21,415 nt of DNA from a virus. Its lineage: Duplodnaviria; Heunggongvirae; Uroviricota; Caudoviricetes. The translations under genes were made by a program, and so were the position numbers. This document shows, piece by piece, positions 1-18,147 of this stretch. Under the pieces are notes generated by a model. That model did not search any database. It was not told where the DNA came from and was given only the letters and a program-made list of their open reading frames with translations. Positions within the stretch are counted from its first letter, which is position 1, and each line of letters begins with the position of its first letter. Where the stretch lies: the IMG/VR virus record IMGVR_UViG_2737471822_000004, positions 1-21,415 of that record. The stretch is one strand, 5' to 3'.

Positions 1-705
1 TTAATTGTCTCTGATGGTTTTGGAAAATAGATCGTTGACTTCAAAACCATACCTTACAACCAAGTCATATGCTCCAGATTCTATGTATGAGTTTTCAAAA
101 TCCTTTTTGCTGTTTTCTGTGTAACCTCCTATTCCTATTAAATAATCTTCCACCTCTTTTAATCTTGTCGATTTTTCTTTTCCAGTATTCAATAACTTGC
201 TATCGTCATCAAATTCTGCTTTATATTTTTCATGTAGTTTAGTTATAGAGGGGGATAAATTTTTAATTTTAAGAAGAATATTTTGTTGATCAGTGTCTCT
301 TAATTCCTTAATGTAAGGGTTGCTATAAAAAGTTTTTTCAAAGCAACTGGTTATATCTTTGTTTAAAAATGTTTTTAATTCCTTCATTCTTACATCATGT
401 GATTTTTTACTGTCATCTTCAGATGGTTGACGCATAAGTATTTCTGTTGGAGAACATTGGGAGATTGCATCAACAACATATTTTCTTGAATATTCCTTTC
501 TTAACTTTAAATATAGAGTTTTTTCTTTGTCTTGTAATTGTTTATATTCGATTTCTTTTTTTGCTATTGATTCCTGCAGATTTGCATTTTGGTATATCGG
601 AATTACTGTGTAAAATATTGTAAAGGTTGTCAAAAAAAACAATCCAACTTGGGCAATGTAACTTACTCTAATCAACCATAAATCAAATTTAGTATTAGTA
701 TTCAT
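1..705 (-). CDS. Hypothetical membrane-anchored coiled-coil protein, cargo gene B (234 aa), paralog of the upstream gene
   Basis: Complete ORF with stop at the window edge. N-terminal hydrophobic helix (IAQVGLFFLTTFTIFYTVIPIYQ) followed by a K/E-rich heptad-like region. N-terminal ~50 aa align with ORF 722..1570 (shared FYTV.PIYQ...E.IAKKE motif). Very AT-rich. No recognisable catalytic motif. Confidence 0.65.
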   Translation of the reverse strand: MNTNTKFDLWLIRVSYIAQVGLFFLTTFTIFYTVIPIYQNANLQESIAKKEIEYKQLQDKEKTLYLKLRKEYSRKYVVDAISQCSPTEILMRQPSEDDSKKSHDVRMKELKTFLNKDITSCFEKTFYSNPYIKELRDTDQQNILLKIKNLSPSITKLHEKYKAEFDDDSKLLNTGKEKSTRLKEVEDYLIGIGGYTENSKKDFENSYIESGAYDLVVRYGFEVNDLFSKTIRDN

Positions 706-721
706 TATAAGATATCCAATA

Positions 722-1570
722 TTAGTCTAAATGTTGAATGTCTTTTAAGAAATCCATGGCGCGGATTCTTGATTGACCATTTATCAGGAAAATATAAGAT
801 GATAGTTCTCTTTCTGCAGTGTTATTTTTCATTATTTCGTTTTCATTTTTGCGTAACTTAGTTGACTCTATAGTTTTTATCAGACTATTAATTTTTTCAT
901 CAAAACCGATAGGTTTTTTTGTTAATGAAATCTTATTTTTTTCAATAGCGCGACGGATCTTTGCTAGAATTTTGTTGCGGATATTTTCAGGGACATTTTC
1001 TGAACTTGAGATAAAGTTATGATTGCCATTTTTTAATGCTTCATTAATTGCATCATAAGGAGATATATATAAATTACTAGGAGTATTATAGGCTGTTTTG
1101 GCGTCACCCAGTGTATTGTTCACAAAATCTGTGCTCTTAGAAATATAAACTACTCCAACTAGCCCCGAAAAATTCTCCCAGAAAACAGATTCAAGATTCT
1201 TGTTGTTTGCATTGACCGCTCTTTTGGAAATGGTCTTTTGTTTATTTAGTTCATTTAAAGTTTTTCTTAGTTCAGAATTTATTGAATTTAATTTTTCTTC
1301 TGATTCTTTGTATTGTAAATCAAGTTTGGCAATGCTTCCCTCCAATTCTTTTCGTAAGATTTTATTATTCTCTATAAATTTTTGGGAGTTTTCCATTGCT
1401 GTTTTTAATTTATTTAATTCAACTTCTTTTTTTGCAATTTCTTCTGATAAAAGTTCCTTTTGGTAAATTGGTCTTACTGTATAAAAATATCCAAAAATAG
1501 CAAATGCCACCAATACAAACTGTGATACATGGCTAACTCGGCTCAAAAAAACATCAACTTTATTTGACAT
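722..1570 (-). CDS. Hypothetical membrane-anchored coiled-coil protein, cargo gene A (282 aa)
   Basis: N-terminal TM helix (FVLVAFAIFGYFYTVRPIYQ) then a long coiled-coil-like segment. Start aligns with the paralog start. GAGG 5 nt upstream of ATG. 16-nt spacing to the downstream gene suggests an operon. Confidence 0.65.
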   Translation of the reverse strand: MSNKVDVFLSRVSHVSQFVLVAFAIFGYFYTVRPIYQKELLSEEIAKKEVELNKLKTAMENSQKFIENNKILRKELEGSIAKLDLQYKESEEKLNSINSELRKTLNELNKQKTISKRAVNANNKNLESVFWENFSGLVGVVYISKSTDFVNNTLGDAKTAYNTPSNLYISPYDAINEALKNGNHNFISSSENVPENIRNKILAKIRRAIEKNKISLTKKPIGFDEKINSLIKTIESTKLRKNENEIMKNNTAERELSSYIFLINGQSRIRAMDFLKDIQHLD

Positions 1571-1604
1571 AACGCCTCTATAAGATTCTCTTTTTATCTA
1601 CAAC

Positions 1605-1610
1605 ATTATA
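1605..1610 (-). promoter_or_regulatory. Possible -10 hexamer (TATAAT on minus strand) for the cargo operon
   Basis: Perfect TATAAT about 35 nt upstream of the 282-aa start codon. The region is AT-rich, so a chance match is plausible. Confidence 0.25.
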
Positions 1611-2004
1611 ATTTTTTAATGAAAAAAATCATCTAAAAATTAGTTCAAAGCAATACGTTCAAACTGATATTGATGCTTAGGAGCTAATCGGTACGTATTG
1701 ATGGTACAACAGAAAAGAACAATAGAAAGCTTGGGGGCTGACGTTGCTACTGGCGCACATACCCATGTCGTACTAAAAGAGTTCATTTGATTTTATAACT
1801 ATATCAGCCCGTTATTTTTATGTTGATGCGAACAGCCCCGCACGCCTGCCCGCTTCGCTTAACAGACTGGTTTTCATGCACCTCATAAATCGTCTCAGAA
1901 GCCACCACACGAGGGCTTTCTCGTCAAAAATGGTGCATAAGGTTCATGCGTTTTCATGCGCTATAGACATGCACTCATGCGCTCTCAGGCCAGCCAGGGA
2001 AAAG

Positions 2005-2034
2005 GTGTTAAAAATCCCGGTACTCGACCGGGAT
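2005..2034 (-). terminator. Rho-independent terminator after the sid-psu-delta operon
   Basis: Perfect 8-bp stem ATCCCGGT / ACCGGGAT (2014-2021 and 2027-2034) with a 5-nt loop. On the minus strand it is followed by UUUUAACACC. Lies about 20 nt downstream of the delta stop. Confidence 0.7.
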
Positions 2035-2054
2035 TACGTGGGCGTTTTTTCTAA

Positions 2055-2336
2055 TCAGACAGGAATCTGCTGACGGCTTGACAGTTTTGACGCGGAGCCA
2101 TAGCGATTGAGCGTTTGCTGTTGTTTTACCGGGGGTTGTGATTTGTCTGGTTCCTGTTCATTGCGCCGGGGTTTCATGATTATCTTATCCACACTCTCCA
2201 GTGCCGTAAATGTGCAGGAACATTCCAGATTCTGGCACTGATACCACGAGCGTTTAACTGACGGAGCTTCATAGGCTGCTGTTCTGGCGTGTGCAACTGT
2301 ACCGCATTCCGGACATTTAAGTGCCATTAAAATCAC
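2055..2336 (-). CDS. delta: Ogr/Delta-family zinc-finger late transcription activator (93 aa)
   Basis: Translation carries the CPECG...HART...YQCQN.ECS zinc-finger pattern typical of P2 Ogr / P4 Delta. Start overlaps the psu stop by 4 nt. Confidence 0.85.
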   Translation of the reverse strand: MILMALKCPECGTVAHARTAAYEAPSVKRSWYQCQNLECSCTFTALESVDKIIMKPRRNEQEPDKSQPPVKQQQTLNRYGSASKLSSRQQIPV

Positions 2337-2884
2337 TCCTGTATATCGTTAATGTCATTCAGGCGTTGCTGAAAATGCAGATGTTGTGCCGGGGTGTAAG
2401 AGTCCTGGCAATCACGAATCATCCCGGGGTCAGGTATCAAACCGGATTCATCCAGGATCTCACGATAATCCCCGGCAATTTCAGGCGGTGTTATTGCCAG
2501 CTGGCGAACCAGAGCACTGCGTAATATACGGGACGCAACGTCAACCCCTCCGCGTCCCTTCAGGAACGGAGCCAGTGCAGATGTCAGGGCTGCCCCATTC
2601 GCCTGCATAAAATTGCTGAGAGCTGCTTCTGTGCAGGCCTCCATCAGTAAATGCTGCGAGTAAATGCATTCGCGCGCAGCACAGTTAATTTGCCATTTCA
2701 GCACATCCAGACGTTCCCGCAGTAATTCGAGCTGTCGGGCATAATCTGCTGGTTTTTCTGTGGCAGCAAGGAGAGATGCTATCTGTTGTTCAACGGCTTT
2801 TCGGCTCTCACTATGTCCGGCCCACAGAATACGGGCATTCCGAAAACTGGTAAGTGCCTGGTCAGGCGTGCCTCGGGCCGTCAT
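2333..2884 (-). CDS. psu: Psu-like polarity suppression / capsid decoration protein (183 aa)
   Basis: Size, all-helical composition and recalled P4 Psu motifs (LKWQIN.AA, FMQ..G.AL..ALAP, YTPAQ). Sits inside the late operon, coupled to sid and delta by 4-nt overlaps. Confidence 0.7.
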   Translation of the reverse strand: MTARGTPDQALTSFRNARILWAGHSESRKAVEQQIASLLAATEKPADYARQLELLRERLDVLKWQINCAARECIYSQHLLMEACTEAALSNFMQANGAALTSALAPFLKGRGGVDVASRILRSALVRQLAITPPEIAGDYREILDESGLIPDPGMIRDCQDSYTPAQHLHFQQRLNDINDIQE

Positions 2885-3624
2885 ACTGCTTTCTCCTTCT
2901 CAGCAAGTTCCTGACGAACCTTAATTTTATGCATAGCTGCCGGAGAGAGTTGATTACTGAAATCCAGACGCGCCGCATAATCCGGGGCAATTCCCGCCAG
3001 TTTAAACACCGGGTCCTGTTCAGGCATCGCATCGTTAGCCAGAGCCGGTCTGGTGATATGTTTATGAATAAAGTCTTTCAGCACTGTGTCCGGGTCATTA
3101 ACTGAATTCACCACACCCACAACGGCACTGGCTTCCCGGCCCATTGTGGATTTAAGCAGGCTCAGCGTCTGAATAAGCGCTTTTCCATGCGACTGCATAA
3201 AATCTTCCCAGATTTGTTTTGCACGAATATCCACAAGAATATTATGCGCGTGGATATACTTTCCGGCTAATTCTGCAGCTTTCTGCGGCAAAAGTGCATT
3301 TTCGCTTTCCTGAGCCGCCAGCAGCTCATCAAAATCCTCAAGCGTTTCTCGTCCCAGCGCAATTTCCGTGCGCAGTTTTTTCATTTCCTTTGAGACCACG
3401 CCCTGACTTTCACGAAACAGCGTGCGCCACTCCTCATTCAGTGTGTTCGTCGTGGCTTCCATTTCAGCGCGACGCTGGCGGATTGTCGCAATATTATCCG
3501 CTGCCGCTTTCTGCTGACGACGTGCTTCAAGCCATGCGTTTCTGGCTGTGTTCATGGTTTCCAGTGCCCGCTGCGTTACAGCCGGAAAAGTGGAAAGGTT
3601 GTTATTCACTGCGGTGTTGTTCAT
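2881..3624 (-). CDS. sid: Sid-like external scaffold / capsid size determination protein (247 aa)
   Basis: First gene of the late operon, immediately downstream of tandem TGT-N12-ACA dyads. Size close to P4 Sid, helical Ala/Glu-rich sequence. AGGAG 6 nt upstream of ATG. Confidence 0.65.
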   Translation of the reverse strand: MNNTAVNNNLSTFPAVTQRALETMNTARNAWLEARRQQKAAADNIATIRQRRAEMEATTNTLNEEWRTLFRESQGVVSKEMKKLRTEIALGRETLEDFDELLAAQESENALLPQKAAELAGKYIHAHNILVDIRAKQIWEDFMQSHGKALIQTLSLLKSTMGREASAVVGVVNSVNDPDTVLKDFIHKHITRPALANDAMPEQDPVFKLAGIAPDYAARLDFSNQLSPAAMHKIKVRQELAEKEKAV

Positions 3625-3658
3625 GACTTCTCCTGTCGGGTTGGTTCGTTACGTCAAT

Positions 3659-3714
3659 TGTGTCGTGGCTGACACAAGCACACTATCGGTGATCAGTGTG
3701 TGGTGGCTGGCACA
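3659..3714 (-). promoter_or_regulatory. Late promoter region with two TGT-N12-ACA dyads (Ogr/Delta-type activator binding sites)
   Basis: TGTgtcgtggctgacACA at 3659-3676 and TGTgtggtggctggcACA at 3697-3714, centres 38 bp apart, about 45 and 80 nt upstream of the sid ATG. Confidence 0.6.
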
Positions 3715-3802
3715 ACGGGCGCTTGCGGTTATTCAGACGTGGCTATGAAAGCCAGCCAGATAAAAATGCCCTCTGTTTCAGTCTGCTTTATGTCCCTGAT
3801 GC

Positions 3803-3991
3803 GGTGGAACAGGTGAAACATGTGTTACTGCTTTGTTTTATAAAGTATTTATATACACTGCACCGGTGGAACATCGCGGGTAACAAGGTGGAACAGCGGA
3901 TTGGCTGGCGTTACATCTGTTCCACCTCACTATTTCAGAAGGTGAAACAGGTTCAGCCCTTGTAAAATACGGTTGTTCCACCTGTTTCACC
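3803..3991. repeat. Iteron cluster: 8 copies of 9-mer GGTG(G/A)AACA in both orientations, candidate alpha-binding origin/crr
   Basis: Copies at 3803, 3812, 3866, 3887, 3941 (forward) and 3919, 3974, 3983 (inverted, TGTT(C/T)CACC). Outer pairs form an 18-bp inverted repeat. Located between the alpha stop and the sid promoter. Confidence 0.7.
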
Positions 3992-4025
3992 TGTTACCCT
4001 TAATAAATAAGACTCACGCAAAGCC

Positions 4026-6698
4026 TTAACCCGGCACCTCGCTGTTGAAGACATAGAGCCTGCGGGGATTCATCTCTGGCGGGCGAATGGTTGTCTGGAG
4101 TTTGCCATCAGTGGAGGGCAGCAGGTATCCACGATCTGCGCACAGACGCGCCACCTTGCGCGGGTCAAATCCCCTGCAGATTTCTTTCCAGCCGGACGGC
4201 ATGACATAGAACGTAGTGACAGCTTCCGTGCCCTGCGCGGTACTGCCTTTCTCCACCCTTCGCCAGCCCACCATATTGCCGGGGCGGTTGCGCTCGTCAT
4301 ACCAGTCTGCAAAGCGGCTGTACTGATTCGCGGTAAAGAAACTGCGAACCTGCTCCAGTGCGGCGATATCTTCCTGATTGGCGGTGTGCCCGCGATCTTT
4401 CAGCCATGCGTTCAGGCAGACGCGGGTTGCCCGCAGTGCTTCACCCTCAGGCCAGCCGGTGATACCCAGACGGGTTGCCAGTTCACCTGCCATCGCCACC
4501 AGTGCAAAGCGGTTCACAGCCCGGCCCACTTGATTGCCTGCATCTTTCGGAGTCAGGGCGGCAGCATATTCCTTCATCAGCGATTTTGCCTGTGCCGTTA
4601 GTCCGTTAAGATCAGCGGTCAGTGCTTTCAGCCACTCCCGGAACGGCGAACCGTAGTAGCAGGACGTGGCCCATTCAAGATGCTCTGCCAGAGCCTTGCC
4701 GCTGTCGAAGCCGTGCAGCTCCTCAAAAACGCCAAACTTCCCGGAATCGCTGGGGATCTGGATCATCCTGACTTCCATCCCGGCAAAAGTACGCTCACCG
4801 GCCTTTGCCGCATGTTCGGTCAGAGACAACTCGCCAGTTGAAAAGAACAACAGGCGCCACTGCTTACGGGTACGCAGCTCACCGTCCGTACCGGCACGGC
4901 CCTTGCCTTGACCGTTTGCCAGCATGTAGGCGATATTGCCTGCCTCGCGTCCGTCAACTTCCCGGATCTCATCAAGCATCATGGCGGCATCGTTGCGGCG
5001 GCTGGCGCATCCCTCCAGCGCGTTGCCGGTGGCCCGCCATGTCTGCCAGTAGTCAGGCCCGCCGCAGACGGAGGTTGCTGCTTTCATGGTGGTGGTCTTA
5101 CCGTCTGTCGATTCCCCTTTGAGGTGGTAGCCGCCGCCGTCCATACCAACCAGCCGTAACAGTGGTGCAGCAAAGGCCAGGCTGACAGCAAATGCCACGC
5201 GGGAGTTGCCGGTACAGTAGCGGGATACATGCTCCCGCCATTCCTCTGTTGTGCCCGACACGCGGAAATCACGCCCCTGCACGGAAGTGGTCTGGAGAAT
5301 GACACCCTCTGCACCTTCACCGCTGACCTCATCCTGCAGGACGTAAACCTGACCATGCCAGCCAGTACGACTGACGCAGGTCACGCGGCGTTCCGGTTTA
5401 CACAGTGAGATATATTCCATCAGGCGTGCGCGTGCCTCACCGGTGGTGCTGATATAAGACAGCCCGTTAACCAGCAGTACCCGGCGCAGTTCCTCACCAC
5501 TGCCGCTCAGCATTTCCATCGGCATCGCCCAGCGGCGACACTCACCCCACGTATCTTCCCATTCCAGCAGTCGTCCGAAGTTACCGCCATCGGCATCGCA
5601 GGTGATTGCCGTCACGCGCAGCGGGCTGCATATTTTGACGTTCTGGATCTCCGTCTCACCGTTGCGCTGTACCTGCTTTTCATACCAGAGATATTCCTGG
5701 GTAAGACGGAACCCGTGCGGCAGTTGCGTGCGGCTTTCCCCGCACAGTACCAGACCGTTGCGAAAGGCTTCACGGGCACGGGTAATACCGTGCTCCCGAT
5801 GAAAGTCATTCCAGTCAGCCTTAATCTCTCCTGGTGGCAGCGTCATCCAGCCGCCAACAGCTTTTGCCGCCCGTTCAGCAAAGGCTCTGCCGGGATTCTC
5901 ACCCCCGTCCTGAAAATCGTTATCACCGGCGATGATAATTTTTACCTCAGGCCAGCGTGCCCGCAGCGACTGCGCCACATTGGGCAGGTTGCCCGCAGAT
6001 ATGGCAGCCACTACGCATCCGGCAGTGAGCTGGCTTACCGTCAGCGCCGTAGCGTAACCTTCGGTAATCACCACCTGTATCGGTGGTTCAGACGGTAACG
6101 GGCTGAGCGACACAAACGCGCCTTTCATCGTGCTGCCGGGCAGTATGCTTTTTTCACCCGTCGGGGCGATAAGCTGTGCACCGGTCACGGCTCCGGTGTT
6201 GGTCGTGAGTGGTAACAGCAGGGAACCGGCAGGAAAATCCTTACCGCTGATATGCTGTACGCTTCCGGTCAGAGAGGCCGGGTATCCGGCGAACCCTTTT
6301 CCTGTCAGATAGGCGCTTTCTCCCGTGTGGCTCTCTTTCATCAGCGCCGCCACGGTAAGACCCATGTCGCGTTTAGGGGCTTTTTGTCTGGCAGGCTTAA
6401 CAGGCAGTTCCTGCATATCCGGCACATTAAGCACCTGCGCCACCTCCTGCGCAGCCTTTCTGACGCTGTAACCGGTTACGAGCTTAACCAGATCCAGACC
6501 GTCACCATTGCCACACTGGCTGCAGATCCACGTCCCGCGCCCGTCAAGGTCATCAAGGCGAAAACGATCCTTGCCCCCACATTTCGGGCAGGGACCGTGC
6601 CTGCCGTTTTCAGGTACATCAATACGCAGCATCTGCAGAATAACGGGCCATTTCCCCCGTGCGGCGGCTGAAACCTGCGTAACCGTCTGTATTGTCAT
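4026..6698 (-). CDS. alpha: Alpha-type primase-helicase (890 aa)
   Basis: N-terminal zinc-binding CPKCGG...CSQCG, TOPRIM-like EGYATAL / AGDND acidic motifs, C-terminal Walker A GESTDGKTT. Start overlaps the upstream ORF stop (ATGA). Confidence 0.9.
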   Translation of the reverse strand: MTIQTVTQVSAAARGKWPVILQMLRIDVPENGRHGPCPKCGGKDRFRLDDLDGRGTWICSQCGNGDGLDLVKLVTGYSVRKAAQEVAQVLNVPDMQELPVKPARQKAPKRDMGLTVAALMKESHTGESAYLTGKGFAGYPASLTGSVQHISGKDFPAGSLLLPLTTNTGAVTGAQLIAPTGEKSILPGSTMKGAFVSLSPLPSEPPIQVVITEGYATALTVSQLTAGCVVAAISAGNLPNVAQSLRARWPEVKIIIAGDNDFQDGGENPGRAFAERAAKAVGGWMTLPPGEIKADWNDFHREHGITRAREAFRNGLVLCGESRTQLPHGFRLTQEYLWYEKQVQRNGETEIQNVKICSPLRVTAITCDADGGNFGRLLEWEDTWGECRRWAMPMEMLSGSGEELRRVLLVNGLSYISTTGEARARLMEYISLCKPERRVTCVSRTGWHGQVYVLQDEVSGEGAEGVILQTTSVQGRDFRVSGTTEEWREHVSRYCTGNSRVAFAVSLAFAAPLLRLVGMDGGGYHLKGESTDGKTTTMKAATSVCGGPDYWQTWRATGNALEGCASRRNDAAMMLDEIREVDGREAGNIAYMLANGQGKGRAGTDGELRTRKQWRLLFFSTGELSLTEHAAKAGERTFAGMEVRMIQIPSDSGKFGVFEELHGFDSGKALAEHLEWATSCYYGSPFREWLKALTADLNGLTAQAKSLMKEYAAALTPKDAGNQVGRAVNRFALVAMAGELATRLGITGWPEGEALRATRVCLNAWLKDRGHTANQEDIAALEQVRSFFTANQYSRFADWYDERNRPGNMVGWRRVEKGSTAQGTEAVTTFYVMPSGWKEICRGFDPRKVARLCADRGYLLPSTDGKLQTTIRPPEMNPRRLYVFNSEVPG

Positions 6699-7078
6699 AC
6701 TTCCCCCTCATACAACGTCACACCGGTACTGCAGAAGTCATCAAAGGCCGCCGGAAGCGTGCGGTACATCTCCGCCATCACTTCACAGCCGCGCGCGGTC
6801 AGTACCGGCGGCGCGGTCAGCAGTGACGGCTCCAGCATGTCAGTCAGCAGTGCCAGCGCGGCAGCGGCGCCCTGCACTTCGCCGTACTCGTTAATCAGTA
6901 CGCACTCGATATGCAGCGCAATGGCCATTTCAATACGCTCCACTGTCAGGCTGTGCGGACCATACTGATCACTGCCAGTTTCGTTCAGCATTTTCTGCCG
7001 CCATGCTGAAGCAATAGCCCGCCGGTAAAGCGCGGTGGTCATTTCTACCGGGAAAATGGAAACCTGCGGCTGGTTCAT
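6695..7078 (-). CDS. Hypothetical protein (127 aa), immediately upstream of alpha
   Basis: ORF with ATGA stop/start overlaps on both sides. Position is analogous to the small genes preceding alpha in P4 (orf151/epsilon region). No motif recognised. Confidence 0.55.
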   Translation of the reverse strand: MNQPQVSIFPVEMTTALYRRAIASAWRQKMLNETGSDQYGPHSLTVERIEMAIALHIECVLINEYGEVQGAAAALALLTDMLEPSLLTAPPVLTARGCEVMAEMYRTLPAAFDDFCSTGVTLYEGEV

Positions 7079-7359
7079 CTGGCACCTCCTTCAATCAGTG
7101 CGCAGCTGTGTGCAATATCCGTCAAATCTGCCAGCAGGTACTCCATCAGCGCGGCGACACCAGGCGCACAGCCTGCGTCCAGTGCTCCGGCCTGAGACGG
7201 GTATTCAGAAAAGAGAAGCTGGAGCATGTCGCAGGCATTTCTTGCGCGGGTCAGCTTTCCGAAACTGTCCTCTGACAACCCATAGGCAAAAGCACCGGTA
7301 TTGTGTTTTTCAGGCAAAGTGTGGCCCTGAGCACCGTTGAGCCCGTTTGAAATATTCAT
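7075..7359 (-). CDS. Hypothetical protein (94 aa)
   Basis: GGAG 10 nt upstream of ATG. Stop overlaps the next start. Epsilon-like by position and size only. Confidence 0.5.
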   Translation of the reverse strand: MNISNGLNGAQGHTLPEKHNTGAFAYGLSEDSFGKLTRARNACDMLQLLFSEYPSQAGALDAGCAPGVAALMEYLLADLTDIAHSCALIEGGAR

Positions 7360-8531: not shown

Positions 8532-8773
8532 ATACTATGGGGATATCAAAATGCTGTGAAGGTAGTGTAATCAACTCTACCTGTAGATTGTTTCAGTCTA
8601 CCCCTTTTGTTTTAATCCCGCATGATTAACCGCTAATCGTAATTTTCTTAAGATTTCTTGTTCATTAGTGATAAATATTGGAGGTAGCTCTCCTAAATGT
8701 TTAATTATGGCGTTAGTCCACTTTTCAGGACTTATCTCTTTTCTTTCACCACGACATTCGCTTGGGTATTTTG

Positions 8774-9481
8774 CTAATATATATATATGGCTGCATTTAA
8801 TAACCCCTCCCTATTTTTTGCATGATGCTCAGCAGTGTTATTTAATCGCTTGGGGATTTTAGGTTCAGATGAAATTCTTTTCGTAAGTAAACTTGGCATA
8901 GGAATTCCAGTTTTTACTGATTTCCATATTAACTCTAAATCTCTTCGCATGATAAGAAGATCTTCAAATGGAATCTCAATGACCTTATTTCCTTCATATG
9001 AGGCCGTTGCCATCAAAACATTATCTCGTATTTTTACCGGTTTAAGCCTGAATTCATAATCTGGATCTATAGCTAATCCATTTTTTATGTCACTTATCAT
9101 ATCATCGGCGTACCAAATACCACAGGCAAATCCTATAATTTGAAGCCCATTTTCAAAATGTTCAAAGGAATCATCTTTAAGGTCATACCATATTGTTGAA
9201 AATTCCATCTCTAGTGATTGATTAGTTAATACGGGATGAATTAAGTCAATTTCCATTTTCTGATTTTTATTGAGGAAATTAACATTAAATCTAACTGCAA
9301 GTCCATCCGCCTTGAATGCGATATTAAAAGCGCCTATTTCGTATAGATGTAATAAATCATCAATCTCGCATTCTAATAGTCTTGAAGCGCGTTCAAATGA
9401 ACAATATTCTAATGGTGGTATTTTTTTGTCAATCCATAGATTTCCTAAGAATATAGTTTCATTCTCTGTTGAATGCTGCAT
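8774..9481 (-). CDS. Hypothetical protein (235 aa), AT-rich cargo gene between integrase and alpA
   Basis: Long ORF with GAGG 7 nt upstream of ATG, 30 nt downstream of the integrase stop. Lower GC than neighbours. No motif recognised. Confidence 0.6.
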   Translation of the reverse strand: MQHSTENETIFLGNLWIDKKIPPLEYCSFERASRLLECEIDDLLHLYEIGAFNIAFKADGLAVRFNVNFLNKNQKMEIDLIHPVLTNQSLEMEFSTIWYDLKDDSFEHFENGLQIIGFACGIWYADDMISDIKNGLAIDPDYEFRLKPVKIRDNVLMATASYEGNKVIEIPFEDLLIMRRDLELIWKSVKTGIPMPSLLTKRISSEPKIPKRLNNTAEHHAKNREGLLNAAIYIY

Positions 9482-9511: not shown

Positions 9512-10846
9512 TTAATTGATAATGTTAATACCTGATAAGTCATAAGGAGCATGGAATTCGTCCTTATTTAGTTCCAGATAATTAGACCACCATTGCATCA
9601 TTCTGCGGCGTTCCTGCATGTGCTGCGCAAGATGCACATATGCTGCCCGCACTTCGTTTCTTTCTTGGTGACTCATCTGCCGTTCAACTGCATCGCGTGA
9701 CCAGAGTCCTGATTCGGTCAGTGCAGAGCAGGCCATCGCCCTGAACCCATGCAAGCAAACATCAGTTTGAGTGTCGTAACCCATCGTTCGCAGTGCTTTA
9801 TTAACTGTGTTTTCGCTCATCGGTTTATATGGGTTGCTGTCACCGGGAAAAACCAGCAGATATTCACCACTGATTTTCCTTATATCCTCCAGTACCCCGA
9901 TAGCCTGACTAGATAGCGGGACATAATGAGCAGCCCCCATCTTTGCACCCCGATCTGAGAATTTAACCCCTGCGATCTCTTCACGTTGTCCTGGTATCGT
10001 CCATAGCCCATTTTCAATGTCGATCTCCTCCCATCTGGCATGTCGTAGTTCGCTGGATCGCACAAAAGTGTGCAGGGAAAAGAGAACTGCTAGGCGAGTC
10101 AATGGTCTTCCCGTGTAACTTCTCGTTTTCGCTAACAGTTCAGGTAAACGTTCGAGAGGTAGTGCGGGGCGATGTCGTACTTTGGGGGCCGTAATTGCAC
10201 CTTTTAGATCGTGGGCAGGGTTGTAATCGACAATTCCACGTTGCACGGCATAACGGAAGATGCTCGTCATAGTGGTTTTTACACGGCTCGTTGTGGCACC
10301 AATTCCTTTCTCAGTCATCTCAACCAGCATCGGCATCAAGTCACGGGTTTTGAGCGTATCGATAGGCTTTGAACCGATGGCAGGAAAGAGGTGGTTTTCC
10401 ATTTCTCGGAGAATTTTTTTACGGGTGATCTCTTTCCACTCAGGATGCCCCATCGTTCCACTATGCCACTCTCTGGCAACACTCTCGAACGTGGGGGAAA
10501 TTGGGTCTTCCTTTTTGGGTTTCTTTGCTTCGCGAGGATCACGACCATCGGCTAGTAGTTGCCTGGCTTCATCACGCCGTTTCCGCGCTGTTGCAAGTGA
10601 GACATCTGGGTAGACCCCTAATGCTAATGTCACTTGTTTTCCATCAAAACGATAATTCATACGCCAGTATTTTCCACCAGTCTTTCGTACCAGTAGATAC
10701 AAACTCCCTCCATCGGTAAGTTTGTAATCATTGGTCTTCGGCTTGGCGTTTTCTATCTGTTTGGGGGAAAGCACATTAATGGCCATATCTGTACTCATTT
10801 TGGTAAATTGATGGTATCTGCATATCGAACTGGGGAATACCATCAC
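9512..10846 (-). CDS. Tyrosine recombinase, P4-family integrase (int1); probable true start at 10786 or 10798
   Basis: N-terminal arm-binding domain (KLTDGGSLYLLVRKTGGKYWRMNYRF...VTLALGVYPDVSLATARKRRDEAR) and C-terminal catalytic region (HGFRA...RAAYVH...RRRMMQWW). The canonical N-terminus begins at MAINVLSPK. Confidence 0.9.
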   Translation of the reverse strand: MMVFPSSICRYHQFTKMSTDMAINVLSPKQIENAKPKTNDYKLTDGGSLYLLVRKTGGKYWRMNYRFDGKQVTLALGVYPDVSLATARKRRDEARQLLADGRDPREAKKPKKEDPISPTFESVAREWHSGTMGHPEWKEITRKKILREMENHLFPAIGSKPIDTLKTRDLMPMLVEMTEKGIGATTSRVKTTMTSIFRYAVQRGIVDYNPAHDLKGAITAPKVRHRPALPLERLPELLAKTRSYTGRPLTRLAVLFSLHTFVRSSELRHARWEEIDIENGLWTIPGQREEIAGVKFSDRGAKMGAAHYVPLSSQAIGVLEDIRKISGEYLLVFPGDSNPYKPMSENTVNKALRTMGYDTQTDVCLHGFRAMACSALTESGLWSRDAVERQMSHQERNEVRAAYVHLAQHMQERRRMMQWWSNYLELNKDEFHAPYDLSGINIIN

Positions 10847-11057
10847 TTATACCATCACGAGGTTGTAATGTCATGAAATTAACTGAAATGAAAATCAGGC
10901 CGATTCGGTGATAACTTACTGTTTTTTTAAGTGGTTATGTAATGAAGTGAAATGTAGAGAAAGGTCTTTAAAGTGTCCCTGCAGACATCTACTTGAGGCG
11001 GCAGGGGGTTGATTAGAATGGTGTTTTTTAGATTTGAGAAATATTTTACCCGCTATT
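10847..11057. other. Inter-element junction: candidate att site region, duplicated alpA start segment, and direct repeats
   Basis: Contains a second copy of the 16-mer TAATGTCATGAAATTA that overlaps the alpA start codon (10866-10881 versus 8487-8502), a tRNA 3'-end-like GTGTCCCTGCAG (10963-10974), and a TATTTTACCC direct repeat at 11042-11063. Confidence 0.35.
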
Positions 11058-11258
11058 TTACCCATTCGCGCGGCTTAAGAGCTTATTTTTGAATTCACAA
11101 TGGTCACGATATAACCATCTTGCTCGTCCGTGGATAACTTTGGCTTTAGGCAGGTCGCCGGACTTAATCCGGTCATAGATGAAGGTTTTACCAAAGCCAG
11201 TATCAGCCATGATGAATTTCAAATCAACCAGTGAATCAGGTTGTAGTTCGTGTTGCAT
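11058..11258 (-). CDS. torI: TorI-like excisionase / recombination directionality factor (66 aa, AlpA/Xis-type winged helix)
   Basis: 66-aa protein MQHELQPDSLVDLKFIMADTGFGKTFIYDRIKSGDLPKAKVIHGRARW... with an HTH_17-like pattern. I recall this as the E. coli KplE1 TorI sequence. GGAGA upstream of ATG. Lies at the prophage end opposite the IntS-like integrase. Confidence 0.65.
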   Translation of the reverse strand: MQHELQPDSLVDLKFIMADTGFGKTFIYDRIKSGDLPKAKVIHGRARWLYRDHCEFKNKLLSRANG

Positions 11259-11300
11259 GAGTGCTATCTCCGAATAGGGAATCGAACCTGCAAATCAGGC

Positions 11301-11323
11301 AATAAAAAACCGCATTGATGCGG
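11301..11323 (-). terminator. Rho-independent terminator at the end of the early operon
   Basis: Minus-strand hairpin CCGCA-ucaa-UGCGG followed by UUUUUUAUU, between the 114-aa gene and the torI-like gene. Confidence 0.6.
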
Positions 11324-11382
11324 CAATGGTAGGTCTGGATATCTTGAGAAATGAACGGGCCTCATCGAGTGTGAGGCTGTGG

Positions 11383-11727
11383 TTAGTCCTTGCGTAACTC
11401 GCTAATTCTTCTGTAAGTCTCTGGTGCTTTGTTTCCGTGTATCTTCATTTCAGACTTCAACAGAGCAACGAGAGAATCCCATTCGTTGAGGATGCCTTTG
11501 AATGCCGGAACGCGCTTTGCAACCTTGTCGAATGAATCCCTGATTTCTGGAATCTGCTCGACAAGCGCAACGCATCGCCGGAAGTCGGCTACGTCATGTG
11601 GAGCGCCGAAGTGATGACCATAGATATTCTTTTTCAGTCCACATGCGATTGAGGCAAGAGTTGCGCTACTGATGCCAACATCGCCAGTCGATTGCCATTT
11701 CAAAACCTTCATAGCCAAATCTGACAT
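11383..11727 (-). CDS. Hypothetical prophage protein (114 aa)
   Basis: ORF co-oriented with the early operon. No motif recognised. Confidence 0.5.
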   Translation of the reverse strand: MSDLAMKVLKWQSTGDVGISSATLASIACGLKKNIYGHHFGAPHDVADFRRCVALVEQIPEIRDSFDKVAKRVPAFKGILNEWDSLVALLKSEMKIHGNKAPETYRRISELRKD

Positions 11728-11799
11728 TTCTTGTCTCCATAAAACAAAACTCGCCGTAGCGAGTTCAGATAAAAGAAATCCCCGCGAGTGCGAGGATTG

Positions 11800-12084
11800 T
11801 TATTCATTGCCGATATTCACCTTTATCGCGAACACCTTTACCGGTTTATCGCCGAAGTGCGGATGTGTGATTGTCTTGATTTCATATCCGTCATACGGGA
11901 CGTCAATTCTGCGGCTGGAATCGTCGCGCTTCGGATATCCCTTTGTGATAATCAGGCGGTCATGCTTACGGTTAACGAGGCGCTTTTTCCAGTAGTCATT
12001 ACACAAGCGATACTCTTCCGTTTTCTCCCCGCGAATCATGGCATCGAAGTATTCACCTTTGACGGCAAGTTGCAGGTTAGCCAT
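11800..12084 (-). CDS. ASCH/DUF3850-like small protein (94 aa from the ATG at 12084)
   Basis: MANLQLAVKGEYFDAMIRGEKTEEYR resembles the N-terminal pattern of ASCH/DUF3850 proteins. GGAGGTG 7 nt upstream. TAATG stop/start overlap with the upstream gene. Confidence 0.55.
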   Translation of the reverse strand: MANLQLAVKGEYFDAMIRGEKTEEYRLCNDYWKKRLVNRKHDRLIITKGYPKRDDSSRRIDVPYDGYEIKTITHPHFGDKPVKVFAIKVNIGNE

Positions 12085-12344
12085 TACCGCACCTCCAGTT
12101 TCCATACCGCCTGACCAATCCGGCTGGCATAGGTATCTTTGGATACTGCTCCGTCTTTAGCCAGCTCCATAAGAATTTTGCGCAAATCTGCCGAACGCCA
12201 TTCTTCATCAGGAAATTCCTTCTCCATTGCCAACCGCAGATTCCAGGTTGCTATCGTGAATGGATATTCCCCGCCGAGAGCTTTCTCTTGCAGGGCAGAA
12301 CGGGAACGCATCACCTGCAAAACCTTCTCTTTTACATCCATCAT
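12084..12344 (-). CDS. Hypothetical prophage protein (86 aa)
   Basis: ORF translationally coupled to both neighbours (4-nt overlap with the DUF551 gene, 1-nt overlap with the ASCH-like gene). Confidence 0.5.
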   Translation of the reverse strand: MMDVKEKVLQVMRSRSALQEKALGGEYPFTIATWNLRLAMEKEFPDEEWRSADLRKILMELAKDGAVSKDTYASRIGQAVWKLEVR

Positions 12345-13342
12345 TTTGCCTCCTGCGGCGGTTCTGGTAGTGGCATCCAGTGTGTGACATTGCTAATCAG
12401 ACCATATTCATTAGTTTGAGGATGGTTGCCGTTATCGTCTCCGTATTTAAGACTCTCCATAAAACCATAATGCTTATTCCCATTAACGCTCACAAAGCCG
12501 TAATAAGCAGGTATAACGCCGATCTCACACGTAACCAGCAAAGGAAAACCAGTTCTCCAGTTTAGTTCACCGATTTCAGGCATTCGATCACTACAGCTTA
12601 TCCAACTATCCGGAGTTACCGGAGAGTTGCCCGATAGCGCGTTCTGCAGTCGCTCCAGCTTCACGTATTCCTGAACCCTGTTTCCGTCGCATGCCTGAAG
12701 CCATTGCGCAGCCTTTTGCGCATCAGTGTGAAAGGCACAAGTGCGACCGTCATCAAATTGCATTTCGTAGAGGTCAGCAACTTGTTCAAACTGCGTGTGT
12801 TGTGACTTGTAAGTTTGGCTTACAGGTTCGGCTTCCAGTTCTGCTATGCGCTTCTCTGTGGATTCCAGCGCTGCAACCAATTCGTCTACAGTTCCGGCAG
12901 CTTGCAGTGCGTAATCGGTAATAGCCATCTCATGATCAATTTCAGTACCGTTCTCATTCGTTGAGGTGATAGCAAAATAATCAGAGTCGATTTCGTTATC
13001 AGCTAAGTGGCGTAGCGTATCGGCAACAAGCTGGCCGTTTTCGATTAGCAGCCTCCCAACCGTAAGCGCAATATCCTCGTTCTCCTGGTCGCGGCGTTTT
13101 ATGTATTGCTGGTTTCTTTCCCGTTCATCCAGCAGCGCCAGCACGGTTTCTGGTCCGGTCAGAAATTTGAAGGCGTTGAGCGCATCAATATCCACACCGT
13201 AATCTTTAAGTTCCTGTTCACTTAACAAATCATCATCAGCTGGCAACATTAACAGGCGTTCCATTGCTGGAATTGCACGTTCCGCCGCCTCACGCAGTGC
13301 CTGGTAATTAATTTCGCTCACTGGTTGCCTCCTTTGCGCCAC
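12341..13342 (-). CDS. DUF551-domain phage protein (333 aa), Ea22-like early-region protein
   Basis: C-terminal [10 protein letters not shown]...LLVTCE...YYGF...[12 protein letters not shown] matches the DUF551 pattern common in lambdoid early-left operons. Acidic N-terminal region. Confidence 0.65.
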
Positions 13343-13501
13343 ATCGCATTCAGATATTTGTTTTGATTCACTGATGGAAAAGAATTTCTCTTAAGCAATT
13401 CCTCTCTCGATGGCATTGGCTTTACGCGTTGGCGAATAATCATTTCCGCCGGAAGAATTCCGGGATTGTATGCAAGTCCTCTCATGGTAAATTCCTCTTT
13501 G

Positions 13502-13816
13502 TTAATTTATTCGTATGCCTGTTCTCTCTTCATCGAGTTTTTTTAGCTTGTATCGCATAGCTCTTACTGAATAAATTGAGCGGCAGGTTGCAATTGCTAT
13601 TTCTTCTGCGGAGAACTTACCGAAAAGTGATACTTCGGCTCTTGTCCATCGTCTTCCACGAAGTCGGCTAACAATGTCAGCGCCAATCCTTGTTGCTTTC
13701 GCCATTACTGCTTTTTCAGTCCTTTCCAGTTTTTCAGCGATAACTTCAACTGGCATTGTCGCCGCCACTTCGCGCAAGAAATCGACTTCCCATTTCTCCC
13801 ATGGAGTCTTTTTCAT
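13502..13816 (-). CDS. Hypothetical prophage protein (104 aa)
   Basis: ORF in operon context. Basic C-terminus. No firm family. Confidence 0.45.
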
Positions 13817-13827
13817 AGGCGATACCG

Positions 13828-14316
13828 TTATTTGATAAGAAGTGAAGGTTTCCCAACTTTGAGTTGAGCGCCGGGGATATTTATTCCTGCTTTTAGTTGG
13901 TGCTTGATTGCCAACTTGTCGGCTTTAATTGTCGTTTCGAACTCAACGTATTCAGGAGGAAGGGCGCTTGAGTCGATGATTTCTACAATTTCTGACGGTT
14001 TGCGGATTGTTACCTGGTGAATACCTGCTCGAATATTTTTCTTGCCAACCATTTCAAGCGATGACGCTATATATGATTTGATGCTGTCAATCTTATTTTG
14101 AATTACTGCGGCTCGCTCATTCAGTGACTTTGCCTCTTCCTTGAGGCGTTCAGCATAAGCAGATTCATTTTTAATGACGGAAAGAAGTTGCTCTATTTTA
14201 TCGGTAAATTCTCCTTCCATGCCTTCTATTGTGTCAGCAATCATCTCTGGTTCTAAATCTGAATCCATCAATTTTGCGTATTCATTGGCAATTTCATACA
14301 GTTTGCTCACTGGCAA
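13828..14316 (-). CDS. Sipho_Gp157-like protein (162 aa), frequent partner of RecT/Erf recombinases
   Basis: Coiled-coil N-terminus and C-terminal ...IKADKLAIKHQLKAGINIPGAQL... pattern. Start overlaps the 3' end of recT. Confidence 0.5.
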   Translation of the reverse strand: MPVSKLYEIANEYAKLMDSDLEPEMIADTIEGMEGEFTDKIEQLLSVIKNESAYAERLKEEAKSLNERAAVIQNKIDSIKSYIASSLEMVGKKNIRAGIHQVTIRKPSEIVEIIDSSALPPEYVEFETTIKADKLAIKHQLKAGINIPGAQLKVGKPSLLIK

Positions 14317-15205
14317 CCTCCAGTTTCGCTTTGCATTCTATGTAAATGGCTTGTACGTTCTGCTGTAATTTCATTCCAGATGTCAGGCGATATGCTTCTG
14401 CAAAATATCGCTTCAAATCATCCATGTTTTCTGCCTGAGCCATTTCATCGCAAAGAAGTTGTACTTTATCCATTATTTCCTGCTGGCGTTTCCGTTCATC
14501 TTCGCGGATATCTTCCTCTGATTTGTGCGGCATAACTGGTTCAGTCCACACACCTTCTTCTTCGTTTAGTACGTGAATAGCACTATCAAGACGTGATGCC
14601 TTAGGCCAATACTTGCTTGCACGCTTTACGACCGTCTTTCGCGCCATCTCATTCCAGTGATTTACCCATGGTCCTTTATCGCTGAATGCCGCCTTGCTTG
14701 TTTTCCTTACAGCCTCAATTTCAGCCAGACTCATCTCTTCCGTTAGATAATCACCTGCTGGCGTCTTAACTGTGCAGTAAACGCCAACGATATCACCGCG
14801 ATCACCGAAGGCGTTGTATTTATGGGTTGGTGCTTTATCAAGCCCGTTTGACTCATAGGTATCGTTAGCATGAACAAGTTTTGCCTGACCCCATGAGATA
14901 ACACCAGACTCCATTGCAATATGGAGCAACCCCATATAACTGATATCAAGGCACACCATGCCGTCGCGCGGAACCAGATAAGCCAGTTTGCTAGCCGGGT
15001 TTAAGGTGATGCCGATCGCCGCAACATTGATGATGGCGTTCTGTGCGCTGGTTGGATTTGCCAGTGCCGTTTTAGCCAGGTAATCGTTTTTCTGGAAATA
15101 CTGAATTGCAAACTGGCTTTCCTTAGCCCATGTCACCGTCTGTTCAGTCAATGCTCCGCAGAATAACTGCTCCTGCTGTTTAACGAATTCAACGATATTG
15201 CTCAT
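14294..15205 (-). CDS. recT: RecT-family single-strand annealing recombinase (303 aa)
   Basis: GPWVNHWNEMARKTVVKRASKYWP matches the conserved RecT motif (Rac RecT: GPWVTHWEEMAKKTAIRRLFKYLP). Family-level call. Confidence 0.8.
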   Translation of the reverse strand: MSNIVEFVKQQEQLFCGALTEQTVTWAKESQFAIQYFQKNDYLAKTALANPTSAQNAIINVAAIGITLNPASKLAYLVPRDGMVCLDISYMGLLHIAMESGVISWGQAKLVHANDTYESNGLDKAPTHKYNAFGDRGDIVGVYCTVKTPAGDYLTEEMSLAEIEAVRKTSKAAFSDKGPWVNHWNEMARKTVVKRASKYWPKASRLDSAIHVLNEEEGVWTEPVMPHKSEEDIREDERKRQQEIMDKVQLLCDEMAQAENMDDLKRYFAEAYRLTSGMKLQQNVQAIYIECKAKLEVASEQTV

Positions 15206-15513
15206 GCTGCTTCTCCAAAAATGTGTCTGCGCTTGAATATTGCGAAGGCATATTCAGCCTTAACTCTTTCGGTTATTGCATCCCAGAACCATTCAGCGGC
15301 TTTTTCCTGATAGTTACAGTCATCATCTTCCAGCCAGTCGATAGCGTCCTTAGTGTGTTCATCTGGTTTATATGAGCGAAGCATTTCGCTTATTGGGTCG
15401 CAACGTTTGCAGAGGCGATCAACTTCACTGTTGATTCGTTCGTAATCTTCATCAGTAAAACTTGCGATTATTTGCGATATTTCACGCTTATCATTCAGAG
15501 TCAGAATCATCAT
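15202..15513 (-). CDS. Hypothetical prophage protein (103 aa)
   Basis: ORF with 4-nt overlap to recT. Acidic. No motif recognised. Confidence 0.5.
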   Translation of the reverse strand: MMILTLNDKREISQIIASFTDEDYERINSEVDRLCKRCDPISEMLRSYKPDEHTKDAIDWLEDDDCNYQEKAAEWFWDAITERVKAEYAFAIFKRRHIFGEAA

Positions 15514-15598
15514 CTTTCTCCTGTTCTTTGTGCTGATTGAGCATTTTGTTCATCTGACGAATGAATTCTTCGTCTGACCAGTTATCCGTAAAACTCAT
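15491..15598 (-). CDS. Possible small ORF (35 aa, acidic C-terminus)
   Basis: Below the ORF-track cutoff. Its ATG overlaps the stop of the upstream 56-aa ORF (ATGA) and its 3' end overlaps the 103-aa start. Supported only by coupling geometry. Confidence 0.25.
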   Translation of the reverse strand: MSFTDNWSDEEFIRQMNKMLNQHKEQEKDDDSDSE

Positions 15599-15765
15599 GG
15601 ACGGCCTTGTTGTTTCAAAATATCCCAAAGCTTTTCGAGCAAACTTTTCATTCTTGGTTGTTTAAAGTCTGCTCCGGTTAAAATATTTTTTCGTGAATGC
15701 TGTACCGATAAAATCGGGTTGAAAGGGCGAACCGATGCCGCCCCTGCAATAGCGAACTGTTGCAT
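15595..15765 (-). CDS. Possible small protein (56 aa), leader gene of the early operon
   Basis: AAGGAG 6 nt upstream of the ATG at 15765. The longer 91-aa frame has no RBS at its first ATG. Confidence 0.3.
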   Translation of the reverse strand: MQQFAIAGAASVRPFNPILSVQHSRKNILTGADFKQPRMKSLLEKLWDILKQQGRP

Positions 15766-15825
15766 AGGATGCTCCTTCTGTTTGATTGCATAACGAAAAC
15801 GCCTCGAGTGAAGCGTTATTGGTAT

Positions 15826-18099: not shown

Positions 18100-18102
18100 A
18101 TT

Positions 18103-18138: not shown

Positions 18139-18147
18139 TTATTTATA

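What the first reader, a model, noticed from the sequence alone, without database searches (positions are those of the whole stretch)
1..1570. Unassigned two-gene cargo (tandem membrane-anchored coiled-coil paralogs) in the satellite's variable region next to psu/delta
Two adjacent co-oriented genes (282 aa and 234 aa) share a conserved ~50-aa N-terminus (TM helix plus FYTV.PIYQ...E.IAKKE) but have divergent coiled-coil C-termini. They are far more AT-rich than the flanking late operon and sit just after the delta terminator and a cos-like sequence. From established knowledge, the equivalent position in P4 (gop/beta/cII) is a hotspot where satellites carry diverse anti-phage systems. I cannot match these proteins to any named defence or exclusion family, so this is a candidate novel membrane-associated abortive-infection or superinfection-exclusion module. 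The functional claim is inference only.
Basis: partly seen in the sequence, partly recalled or inferred. Interest (0 to 1): 0.85.

Follow-up and report, generated by a model that had tools for sequence, protein, structure and literature searches.

The report
Unknown membrane-protein pair in satellite hotspot
Two adjacent genes for single-pass membrane proteins of an unannotated family sit in the swap-prone defence slot of a P4-like phage satellite in E. coli, which makes them plausible but untested candidates for a new envelope-level anti-phage function.

Summary
Two co-oriented ORFs, A (722-1570, 282 aa) and B (1-705, 234 aa), have 28-31% GC. They share about 53-70 N-terminal residues and nothing else. 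They follow sid-psu-delta, a terminator hairpin and a conserved cos-like element of an 11.6-kb P4-like satellite integrated at tRNA-Arg (argW).

The sid/psu/delta/cos backbone occurs in 851 of 5426 complete E. coli genomes, but only 7 carry this pair. Sister satellites hold a retron, a SIR2+ATPase pair, DprA+PRTase or an ABC-three-component system in the same slot.

Neither protein matches Pfam, PADLOC, PHROGs, NCBIfam, PDB or BFVD. The shared N-terminal module defines a large unannotated superfamily of at least 719 clusters at 50% identity, across many phyla. Members lie mostly in satellites, prophage ends, islands and next to Hachiman, Gabija or STAND genes.

Family-wide features indicate an N-in/C-out topology with a periplasmic stalk and head. 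N-terminal extensions are K/R-rich, and C-terminal cysteine counts are even (odd in 6 of 128, p≈1e-28).

The best reading is envelope-level phage exclusion. This is inference, and no phenotype is known. It is a new variant of a known kind. Interest is moderate.

The parts
1..705 (-). Gene B (234 aa). It has a short cytoplasmic N-terminus and one TM helix with the SQ...T...P.YQN..L.E.IAKKE module. A stalk helix runs to about residue 84 and is followed by an all-alpha head with an invariant Cys84/Cys121 pair.
722..1570 (-). Gene A (282 aa). It has the same N-terminal TM and juxtamembrane module. A predicted continuous helix runs to residue 153, giving a stalk of about 115 aa. The all-alpha head covers 159-279 and has no Cys.
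1571..1827 (-). Cargo-specific 5' region of the A-B unit. It contains a Shine-Dalgarno sequence (GAGG) and an AT-rich TATAAT-containing stretch that is conserved with the Citrobacter homologue L012. There is one sigma-70-like site at 1826-1798, but such sites are no more frequent here than in shuffled sequence.
1827..1835 (.). Junction between backbone and cargo. Similarity to about 850 other E. coli satellites ends here.
1836..2005 (-). Conserved non-coding backbone element with GCATGA-type repeats and a G-rich motif. It is cos-like but not verified as cos.
2010..2036 (-). Intrinsic-terminator-like hairpin (9-bp stem) followed by a U-run, downstream of delta.
2055..2336 (-). Ogr/Delta-like zinc-finger activator of the satellite backbone.
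2333..2884 (-). Psu of the satellite backbone.
2881..3624 (-). Sid-like capsid-size protein of the satellite backbone.
9512..10846 (-). Satellite tyrosine integrase. The element ends at about 10977-10984, at the att core remnant GTCCCTGCAG.

Best explanation
A and B form a two-gene unit that was swapped into the defence hotspot of an 11.6-kb P4-like satellite. In the circular form, the hotspot lies between delta/cos and attP/int.

Both are type-II single-pass inner-membrane proteins. About 12 residues are cytoplasmic. The TM helix has one highly conserved face (S16-Q17-L20-A24-G27-T31). It is followed by a juxtamembrane P-x-Y-Q-K...L-x-E-x-I-A motif. A periplasmic alpha-helical stalk comes next, about 115 aa (roughly 17 nm) in A and about 48 aa (roughly 7 nm) in B. 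Each ends in an all-alpha head, and the two heads are unrelated and fast-diverging. B's head carries a conserved cysteine pair.

Most likely the pair is expressed from the integrated satellite and protects the lysogen at the envelope. The variable periplasmic heads would intercept components of incoming phages, such as ejection or tape-measure proteins or the DNA conduit. The conserved TM module would anchor or oligomerise the proteins. The result would be a block on genome entry, that is, superinfection exclusion.

Shown: anatomy, position, variability of the slot, family breadth, topology indicators, genomic associations.
Inferred: expression, oligomerisation, and any anti-phage activity or its mechanism.
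For: Position and slot:
- The element is integrated at tRNA-Arg and carries int, alpha, sid, psu and delta. The pair is the last cargo before the distal att site.
- The slot is hypervariable among satellites with 98% identical cores. Elsewhere it holds a retron St85, SIR2+ATPase, DprA+PRTase or an ABC-three-component system.
[quoted passage not shown] In that work, 6 of 8 randomly chosen unknown loci protected against phages (PMC9122126; bioRxiv 10.64898/2026.02.27.708500).

Topology:
- There is a single TM segment.
- N-terminal extensions in relatives are K/R-rich.
- C-terminal Cys counts among 128 representatives are 0:27, 1:3, 2:64, 3:3, 4:31. Odd counts are 6 of 128, against about 49% expected (p=1.5e-28).
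- B has invariant C84 and C121.

Modularity:
- The N-terminus is 73-75% identical within each family, and the heads 27-33%.
- Conservation in the TM helix has a 100-degree periodicity. Q17 is conserved at 99%, P34 at 100% and E43 at 98%.
- Single-gene relatives combine an A-like N-terminus with a B-like head.

Associations of relatives:
- Satellites or their remnants: L002, L003, L010, L012, L013, L020, L027.
- The int-att end of 186/P2-like prophages: L021-L023.
- A moron site between Q and terminase: L024.
- Next to a NACHT/STAND gene in Klebsiella: L025, L026.
- Directly after HamA-HamB: L016.
- Directly after GajA-GajB: L087.
- Among bacteriocin, CDI and RHS genes: L028, L098.
- Sources.
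Against: - No phenotype exists for any family member.
- No homology to any known exclusion or defence protein.
- Defence adjacency among distant relatives is suggestive only. About 2-4 of 27 loci qualify, and there is no formal background control.
- Some relatives sit in ordinary chromosomal contexts, for example after an RND pump or in a metabolic neighbourhood.
- No member was found in 50,697 sequenced phage genomes.
- The promoter is not established.
- Most family members are single genes, so the need for the pair is unexplained.
Confidence: 0.35

Rival explanations
1. Abortive infection through the membrane. The periplasmic heads sense an incoming phage. The conserved Gln-containing TM module then oligomerises into a pore or lesion that depolarises the cell before the phage completes its cycle.
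For: - The N-terminal TM and juxtamembrane module is the most conserved part across at least 719 clusters, while the ectodomains vary. This is the effector-plus-sensor pattern typical of defence proteins.
- The conserved polar face of the TM helix (S16, Q17, T31) fits helix-helix association.
- TM proteins in P4/P2 hotspot systems are proposed suicide effectors (PMC9122126).
Against: - A single TM helix with no cytoplasmic domain has no link to intracellular infection cues.
- No toxicity data exist.
- No similarity to holins or to CBASS, Pycsar or retron TM effectors.
Confidence: 0.2
2. An envelope accessory function unrelated to phage. Examples are protection against bacteriocins, CDI, T6SS or RHS toxins that cross the periplasm, or another host-fitness 'moron' role such as envelope stress tolerance or surface remodelling.
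For: - Relatives lie among colicin/cloacin immunity, Pyocin_S-PAAR and CdiI genes (L028) and near an RHS toxin on a Burkholderia conjugative plasmid (L098).
- Some relatives are chromosomal singletons, for example 20 bp after RND pump genes (L007).
- The periplasmic orientation suits interception of imported toxins.
Against: - The slot in sister satellites is filled with recognised anti-phage systems.
- Several relatives are directly adjacent to Hachiman, Gabija or STAND genes.
- No cognate toxin gene accompanies the pair in the window.
Confidence: 0.2
3. A satellite life-cycle function. The pair would be late-expressed membrane proteins, read through from sid-psu-delta, that aid lysis in a spanin-like way or manipulate the helper phage.
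For: - The architecture resembles i-spanins: an N-terminal TM, a periplasmic helical stalk and cysteines. There is a weak hit to phrog_89, an Rz-like spanin family (E=0.016).
- In 6 of 8 satellite contexts the genes are co-oriented with, and just downstream of, an Ogr/Delta gene.
Against: - Present in only 7 of 851 E. coli satellites that share this backbone.
- Opposite orientation to delta in L010 and L013.
- A terminator hairpin separates delta from the pair.
- No lipobox or o-spanin ORF, holin or endolysin nearby.
- The family also occurs outside satellites.
Confidence: 0.07

Closest known systems
P4 hotspot cargo (gop-beta-cII of P4; PARIS, retrons, SIR2, DprA-PRTase and others in P4-like satellites; Rousset et al. 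2022, de Sousa et al. 2026 preprint)
   Same: Same genomic slot, between Psu/Delta/Sid plus cos and int/att. The region is AT-rich and swapped between satellites with near-identical cores. It is a small self-contained gene unit.
   Different: No sequence or fold relationship to any of those systems. Both proteins are periplasm-facing membrane proteins with no enzymatic or nucleotide-binding domain. No phenotype has been measured.
Membrane superinfection-exclusion proteins of phages and prophages (T4 Imm/Sp, P22 SieA, HK97 gp15, lambda RexB). Named from general knowledge, not tested here.
   Same: Small membrane proteins encoded on mobile elements in accessory positions. An envelope-level mode of action is the best fit to the topology.
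   Different: No homology was found: no PHROG or Pfam hit beyond coiled-coil noise. A and B have long helical stalks and a module conserved across phyla that those proteins lack. An exclusion function has not been demonstrated.
Rz-type i-spanins
   Same: Type-II N-terminal TM anchor, periplasmic alpha-helical or coiled-coil region, and cysteines in the periplasmic part (B).
   Different: About twice as long, with globular helical heads. No partner o-spanin lipoprotein gene and no lysis cassette. Only a marginal phrog_89 score (E=0.016).
FtsB/FtsL/DivIC bitopic coiled-coil pair
   Same: Two small bitopic proteins, each with a TM helix carrying a key polar residue, followed by a periplasmic coiled coil. 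A possible model for A-B hetero-oligomerisation.
   Different: No Pfam DivIC match for A or B. Only 2 of 120 relatives match weakly. Different motifs, larger ectodomains and a mobile-element context.

Membership tests
P4-like satellite defence-hotspot cargo | Lies between Psu/Delta/Sid (plus cos) and the integrase/att of a P4-like satellite | tested here: met
   sid, psu, delta, alpha and int were identified. In strain PD4 the element is bounded by the tRNA-Arg att core, and the pair is the last cargo before the distal att.
P4-like satellite defence-hotspot cargo | Slot content differs among satellites with near-identical core genes | tested here: met
   The backbone is in 851 of 5426 genomes and the pair in 7. 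The junction is at 1827-1835. Other occupants are listed.
P4-like satellite defence-hotspot cargo | Confers resistance to phage infection | not testable with these tools
   This needs cloning and a phage challenge. The pair was not found in the held text of the supplements of the two hotspot studies, some of which were cut when stored.
Any described defence protein family (PADLOC-DB 2.0, Pfam, NCBIfam) | Significant profile match | tested here: not met
   The best PADLOC hit is E=0.062 (JetC coiled coil). There is no Pfam or NCBIfam hit above the cut-off.
Rz-type i-spanin / spanin pair | N-in/C-out TM anchor with a periplasmic coiled coil | tested here: inconclusive
   The architecture is compatible. 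The only sequence signal is phrog_89 at E=0.016.
Rz-type i-spanin / spanin pair | Cognate o-spanin lipoprotein gene embedded or adjacent, within a lysis cassette | tested here: not met
   There is no lipobox ORF in any frame from att to cos. No holin or endolysin is nearby.
FtsB/FtsL/DivIC | Match to the DivIC/FtsB profile | tested here: not met
   There is no hit for A or B. Of 120 relatives, 2 hit at 2e-5.

The most novel reading that the evidence does not exclude
The conserved N-terminal module (D-x2-L-x-R...S-Q-x2-L-x3-A-x-F-G-Y-F-Y-T-V-x-P-x-Y-Q-K-x2-L-x-E-x-I-A-K-K) marks a previously unrecognised, phylum-spanning superfamily of periplasm-facing, single-pass proteins carried by satellites, prophages, plasmids and defence islands. 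These would constitute a new class of envelope-level immunity. Hypervariable, disulfide-stabilised periplasmic heads on stalks of set length would detect or block phage genome delivery. The invariant Gln/Pro/Glu TM-juxtamembrane module would execute the response. The A/B pair would be a two-height version of this, with heads about 17 nm and about 7 nm above the inner membrane.
Probability: 0.2. Interest if true: 0.8.

Novelty: new variant of a known kind. Interest (0 to 1): 0.5.

Why it matters
Most known bacterial immune systems sense infection in the cytoplasm. Mechanisms that act while the phage genome crosses the periplasm are few and poorly understood.

If this pair protects cells, and with it a family of at least 700 sequence clusters, it would add a widespread, easily recognisable envelope-level module to the defence repertoire. 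It would also provide a simple two-gene model in E. coli and Salmonella for studying how genome entry is blocked or sensed.

If it does not protect, that is a useful counter-example to the assumption that everything in the P4 hotspot is antiviral.

Tried and rejected
Searches that found nothing:
- Profile searches of A and B against Pfam, PADLOC, PHROGs and NCBIfam gave only coiled-coil noise.
- PDB sequence profiles gave nothing.
- Foldseek against BFVD gave nothing. AFDB was unavailable.
- A Pfam scan of 120 diverse family members, looking for informative domain fusions, found none.
- Literature and supplement searches by accession, peptide motif and DNA words found nothing. The pair is not among the named new P4 systems Crouga, Bandua, Aernus, Toga, Reve and Hailong.
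- tblastn of A against 50,697 phage genomes found nothing.
- Rfam and tRNA scans of the window found nothing.

Ideas tested and dropped:
- The cos identity could not be confirmed. The P2/P4 19-mer is absent at up to 3 mismatches, and there is no hit in the phage collection.
- The idea that 'Ogr/Delta + A + B' is a fixed functional trio is not supported. Orientation relative to delta varies, and the pair also occurs without delta.
- The spanin idea fails for lack of an o-spanin or lysis genes.
- By eye, the leader of A contains no P2-late/Psid-type TGT-N12-ACA box.
- A TonB/TolA-like SHLS anchor motif is absent by direct reading of the TM sequence.

Limitation:
- The neighbour census used naive ORF calling. 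It has no formal background control and is only suggestive.

Full report
**What is in the sequence**

Window 1-1570 holds two co-oriented minus-strand ORFs. A is 722-1570 (282 aa) and B is 1-705 (234 aa). They are 16 nt apart. GC is 0.28-0.31 here, against 0.48-0.53 over delta/psu/sid and about 0.6 over the primase gene.

The two proteins share 26 of 53 identical N-terminal residues (E=1e-12). A profile-profile comparison of the two families aligns only the first 70 columns, at 99.3% probability. They are therefore paralogous in an N-terminal module only.

Upstream on the same strand lie several backbone genes:
- an Ogr/Delta zinc-finger gene (2055-2336)
- psu (2333-2884)
- a sid-like gene (2881-3624)
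- a Toprim/DUF927 primase (4026-6698)
- a tyrosine integrase (9512-10846)

Between delta and A there are three features. The first is a 9-bp hairpin with a U-run (-13.8 kcal/mol). The third is about 260 bp of cargo-specific leader. I could not verify cos. The P2/P4 19-mer is absent at up to 3 mismatches, and the segment has no match in the phage collection.

**Where it comes from**

Bases 1-1800 are 99.8-100% identical to 7 of 5426 complete E. coli genomes.

In strain PD4 the element lies between dsdC and tRNA-Arg/yfdC. A 16-bp att core (CCCTGCAGGAATCGAA) is repeated 11.6 kb apart. The distal copy is about 610 bp beyond the window's left edge. A strong hairpin follows B's stop codon there (-19.9 kcal/mol, z=-5).

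The window matches PD4 only up to base 10984. The rest is a different prophage, carrying IntS, RecT and a tailspike, integrated in tandem at the same site.

The exact A and B proteins occur on 270 and 848 public contigs of E. coli and Salmonella. All are annotated 'hypothetical'.

**Is it variable cargo in the hotspot?**

Yes. The sid-psu-delta-cos-like backbone (1800-3650) is present in 851 of 5426 genomes. Similarity stops sharply at window 1827-1835.

In satellites whose backbone genes (sid, psu, delta and, where present, the DUF927-type primase) are 95-99% identical at protein level or ~98% at DNA level, and in more distant ones, the same slot holds other cargo:
- DprA plus a phosphoribosyltransferase
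- an ABC-three-component system
- a 398-aa unknown protein
- retron St85
- SIR2 plus an ATP-binding protein

In the circular form, this slot lies between delta/cos and attP/int. That is the main P4 hotspot described by Rousset et al. 2022 (PMC9122126) and de Sousa et al. 2026 (bioRxiv 10.64898/2026.02.27.708500). The latter report that 27% of P4-like elements have only unknown genes there, and that 6 of 8 randomly chosen unknown loci protected against phages.

The present pair did not turn up in those papers' supplements as held here, some of which were cut when stored. I searched by accession, peptide motif and DNA words.

**What the proteins are**

Neither matches Pfam, PADLOC, PHROGs, NCBIfam or PDB sequences beyond coiled-coil noise.

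The AF2 models are confident (pLDDT 87 and 88) and entirely alpha-helical. A is one helix over residues 3-153 followed by a helical domain at 159-279. B is a helix over 6-84 followed by a helical bundle.

A's stalk shows modest heptad periodicity (p≈0.02). B's stalk is too short to judge.

**A large hidden family**

A profile of the A family finds 719 clusters at 50% identity (E≤1e-3) and 422 at E≤1e-10. Most share only the first 60-110 residues. None of 120 diverse members carries a known Pfam domain.

The shared module is strikingly conserved. Q17 is at 99%, T31 at 99%, P34 at 100%, L41 at 97% and E43 at 98%. Conservation in the TM helix peaks at 100 degrees, which indicates one conserved helical face. 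The sample was selected through the GYFYTV motif, so positions 27-32 are partly circular.

Within the A and B families the N-terminus is 73-75% identical pairwise, against 27-33% for the heads.

The modules also recombine. Single-gene relatives in Pectobacterium and Klebsiella indica combine an A-like N-terminus with a B-like head.

**Topology**

Three observations bear on it:
- There is one hydrophobic segment per protein.
- Relatives with N-terminal extensions have very K/R-rich extensions.
- C-terminal cysteine counts are overwhelmingly even among 128 representatives: 0:27, 1:3, 2:64, 3:3, 4:31. Odd counts are 6 of 128, against about 49% expected (p=1.5e-28).

B also has invariant C84 and C121.

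Together these indicate an N-in/C-out orientation with disulfide-bonded periplasmic domains. This is inference from sequence statistics, not an experiment. Only about 12 residues of A or B would face the cytoplasm.

**Genomic company of relatives**

In Enterobacterales the genes sit in several kinds of context:
- P4-like satellites or their remnants, often just after an Ogr/Delta gene and a cos-like element (L002, L003, L010, L012, L013, L020, L027; L009 keeps only the cos-like remnant)
- a Klebsiella island next to a NACHT/STAND protein
- a cluster of colicin, pyocin and CDI immunity genes

In IMG/VR prophages they lie in two places. One is between int and the prophage end of 186/P2-like phages. 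The other is as a reverse-oriented insert between Q and terminase.

More distant members have these contexts:
- directly after HamA-HamB in Roseateles
- directly after a complete Gabija system, with GajA at E=0 and GajB at 1e-252
- on a Burkholderia conjugative plasmid near an RHS toxin

Among 136 neighbours of 27 distant loci, the most frequent Pfam families are integrases and transposases. Others lie in ordinary contexts, for example 20 bp after RND pump genes.

Tandem pairs occur only in the enterobacterial A/B lineage, in 3 of 59 metagenomic loci. None was found in 50,697 sequenced phage genomes.

The association with mobile and defence regions is consistent, but I could not compute a proper background.

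**Interpretation**

The position, the turnover of the slot and the company of relatives make an anti-phage role the most likely one. The topology argues that any such role is exerted in the periplasm or inner membrane.

I therefore favour exclusion of incoming phage genomes (confidence 0.35). The rivals are:
- periplasmic sensing coupled to membrane permeabilisation, that is, abortive infection (0.2)
- a non-phage envelope role such as protection from imported toxins (0.2)
- a satellite life-cycle or spanin-like role (0.07)

The last is disfavoured for three reasons. The pair is rare among satellites with the same backbone. There is no o-spanin or lysis gene nearby. The family also occurs outside satellites.

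No step of any mechanism has been demonstrated.

**Verdict**

It is a new variant of a known kind.

Unknown genes in this hotspot are common, and are already expected to be antiviral. The added value here is the recognition of a broad, unannotated, periplasm-facing family with a sharply conserved TM module. Interest is 0.5.

Noticed in passing
window 8598-9481 (-): A second AT-rich gene (GC 0.31-0.35) lies directly downstream of the integrase. It is 235 aa from the first ATG, and annotated as 293 aa in strain PD4. It has no Pfam, PADLOC, PHROG or NCBIfam hit. Related satellites have a divergent gene at the same position: 25% identity in L012, and hypothetical proteins of 274 aa in L005 and 259 aa in L003. 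This may be a second variable slot.
   Followed up: partly
window 10985-21415: The window stops matching strain PD4 at 10984, inside the att core (GTCCCTGCAG then ACATC). It continues into a different prophage carrying IntS (20258-21415), RecT, Ea22-like, tailspike and acyltransferase genes. So a satellite and a prophage sit in tandem at argW, and no tRNA gene lies in the window.
   Followed up: partly
window 2055-7080: The backbone differs from canonical P4. The gene order is sid-psu-delta rather than sid-delta-psu. Delta is a single 93-aa Ogr-like protein. The primase is an 890-aa Toprim+DUF927 type rather than D5_N/Pox_D5. The replication genes are co-oriented with the sid operon.
   Followed up: partly
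L002 1-9565 (Enterobacter hormaechei): A P4-type satellite carries a 1034-aa SIR2-nSTAND protein in the canonical psu-side hotspot. It also has a second Ogr/Delta gene with an A/B pair after the primase. This is either two cargo regions or a tandem satellite remnant.
   Followed up: partly
L027 6782-9732 (E. coli, Logan SRR33822390): A different satellite type encodes a P2 capsid-like protein (Phage_cap_P2, 345 aa). It is followed by Ogr/Delta and a single B-like family member.
   Followed up: no
L007 3618-8633 (Pseudodesulfovibrio): A 210-aa family member starts 20 bp after the genes for an RND pump (adaptor plus AcrB-like). It sits where an outer-membrane factor gene would normally be, and may belong to the same operon.
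   Followed up: no
window 1640-1786 (-): A 48-aa ORF lies in the leader between the cos-like element and gene A. The alignment of upstream regions in homologous loci shows no obvious conservation over it, so it is probably not a gene.
   Followed up: partly
L080 and L081 (metagenome contig Ga0209935_1000238): The same family-member locus occurs twice, about 82 kb apart on one 177-kb contig. The right-hand neighbour ORFs and one ORF immediately to the left have identical coordinates in both copies. This suggests a repeated mobile unit.
   Followed up: no
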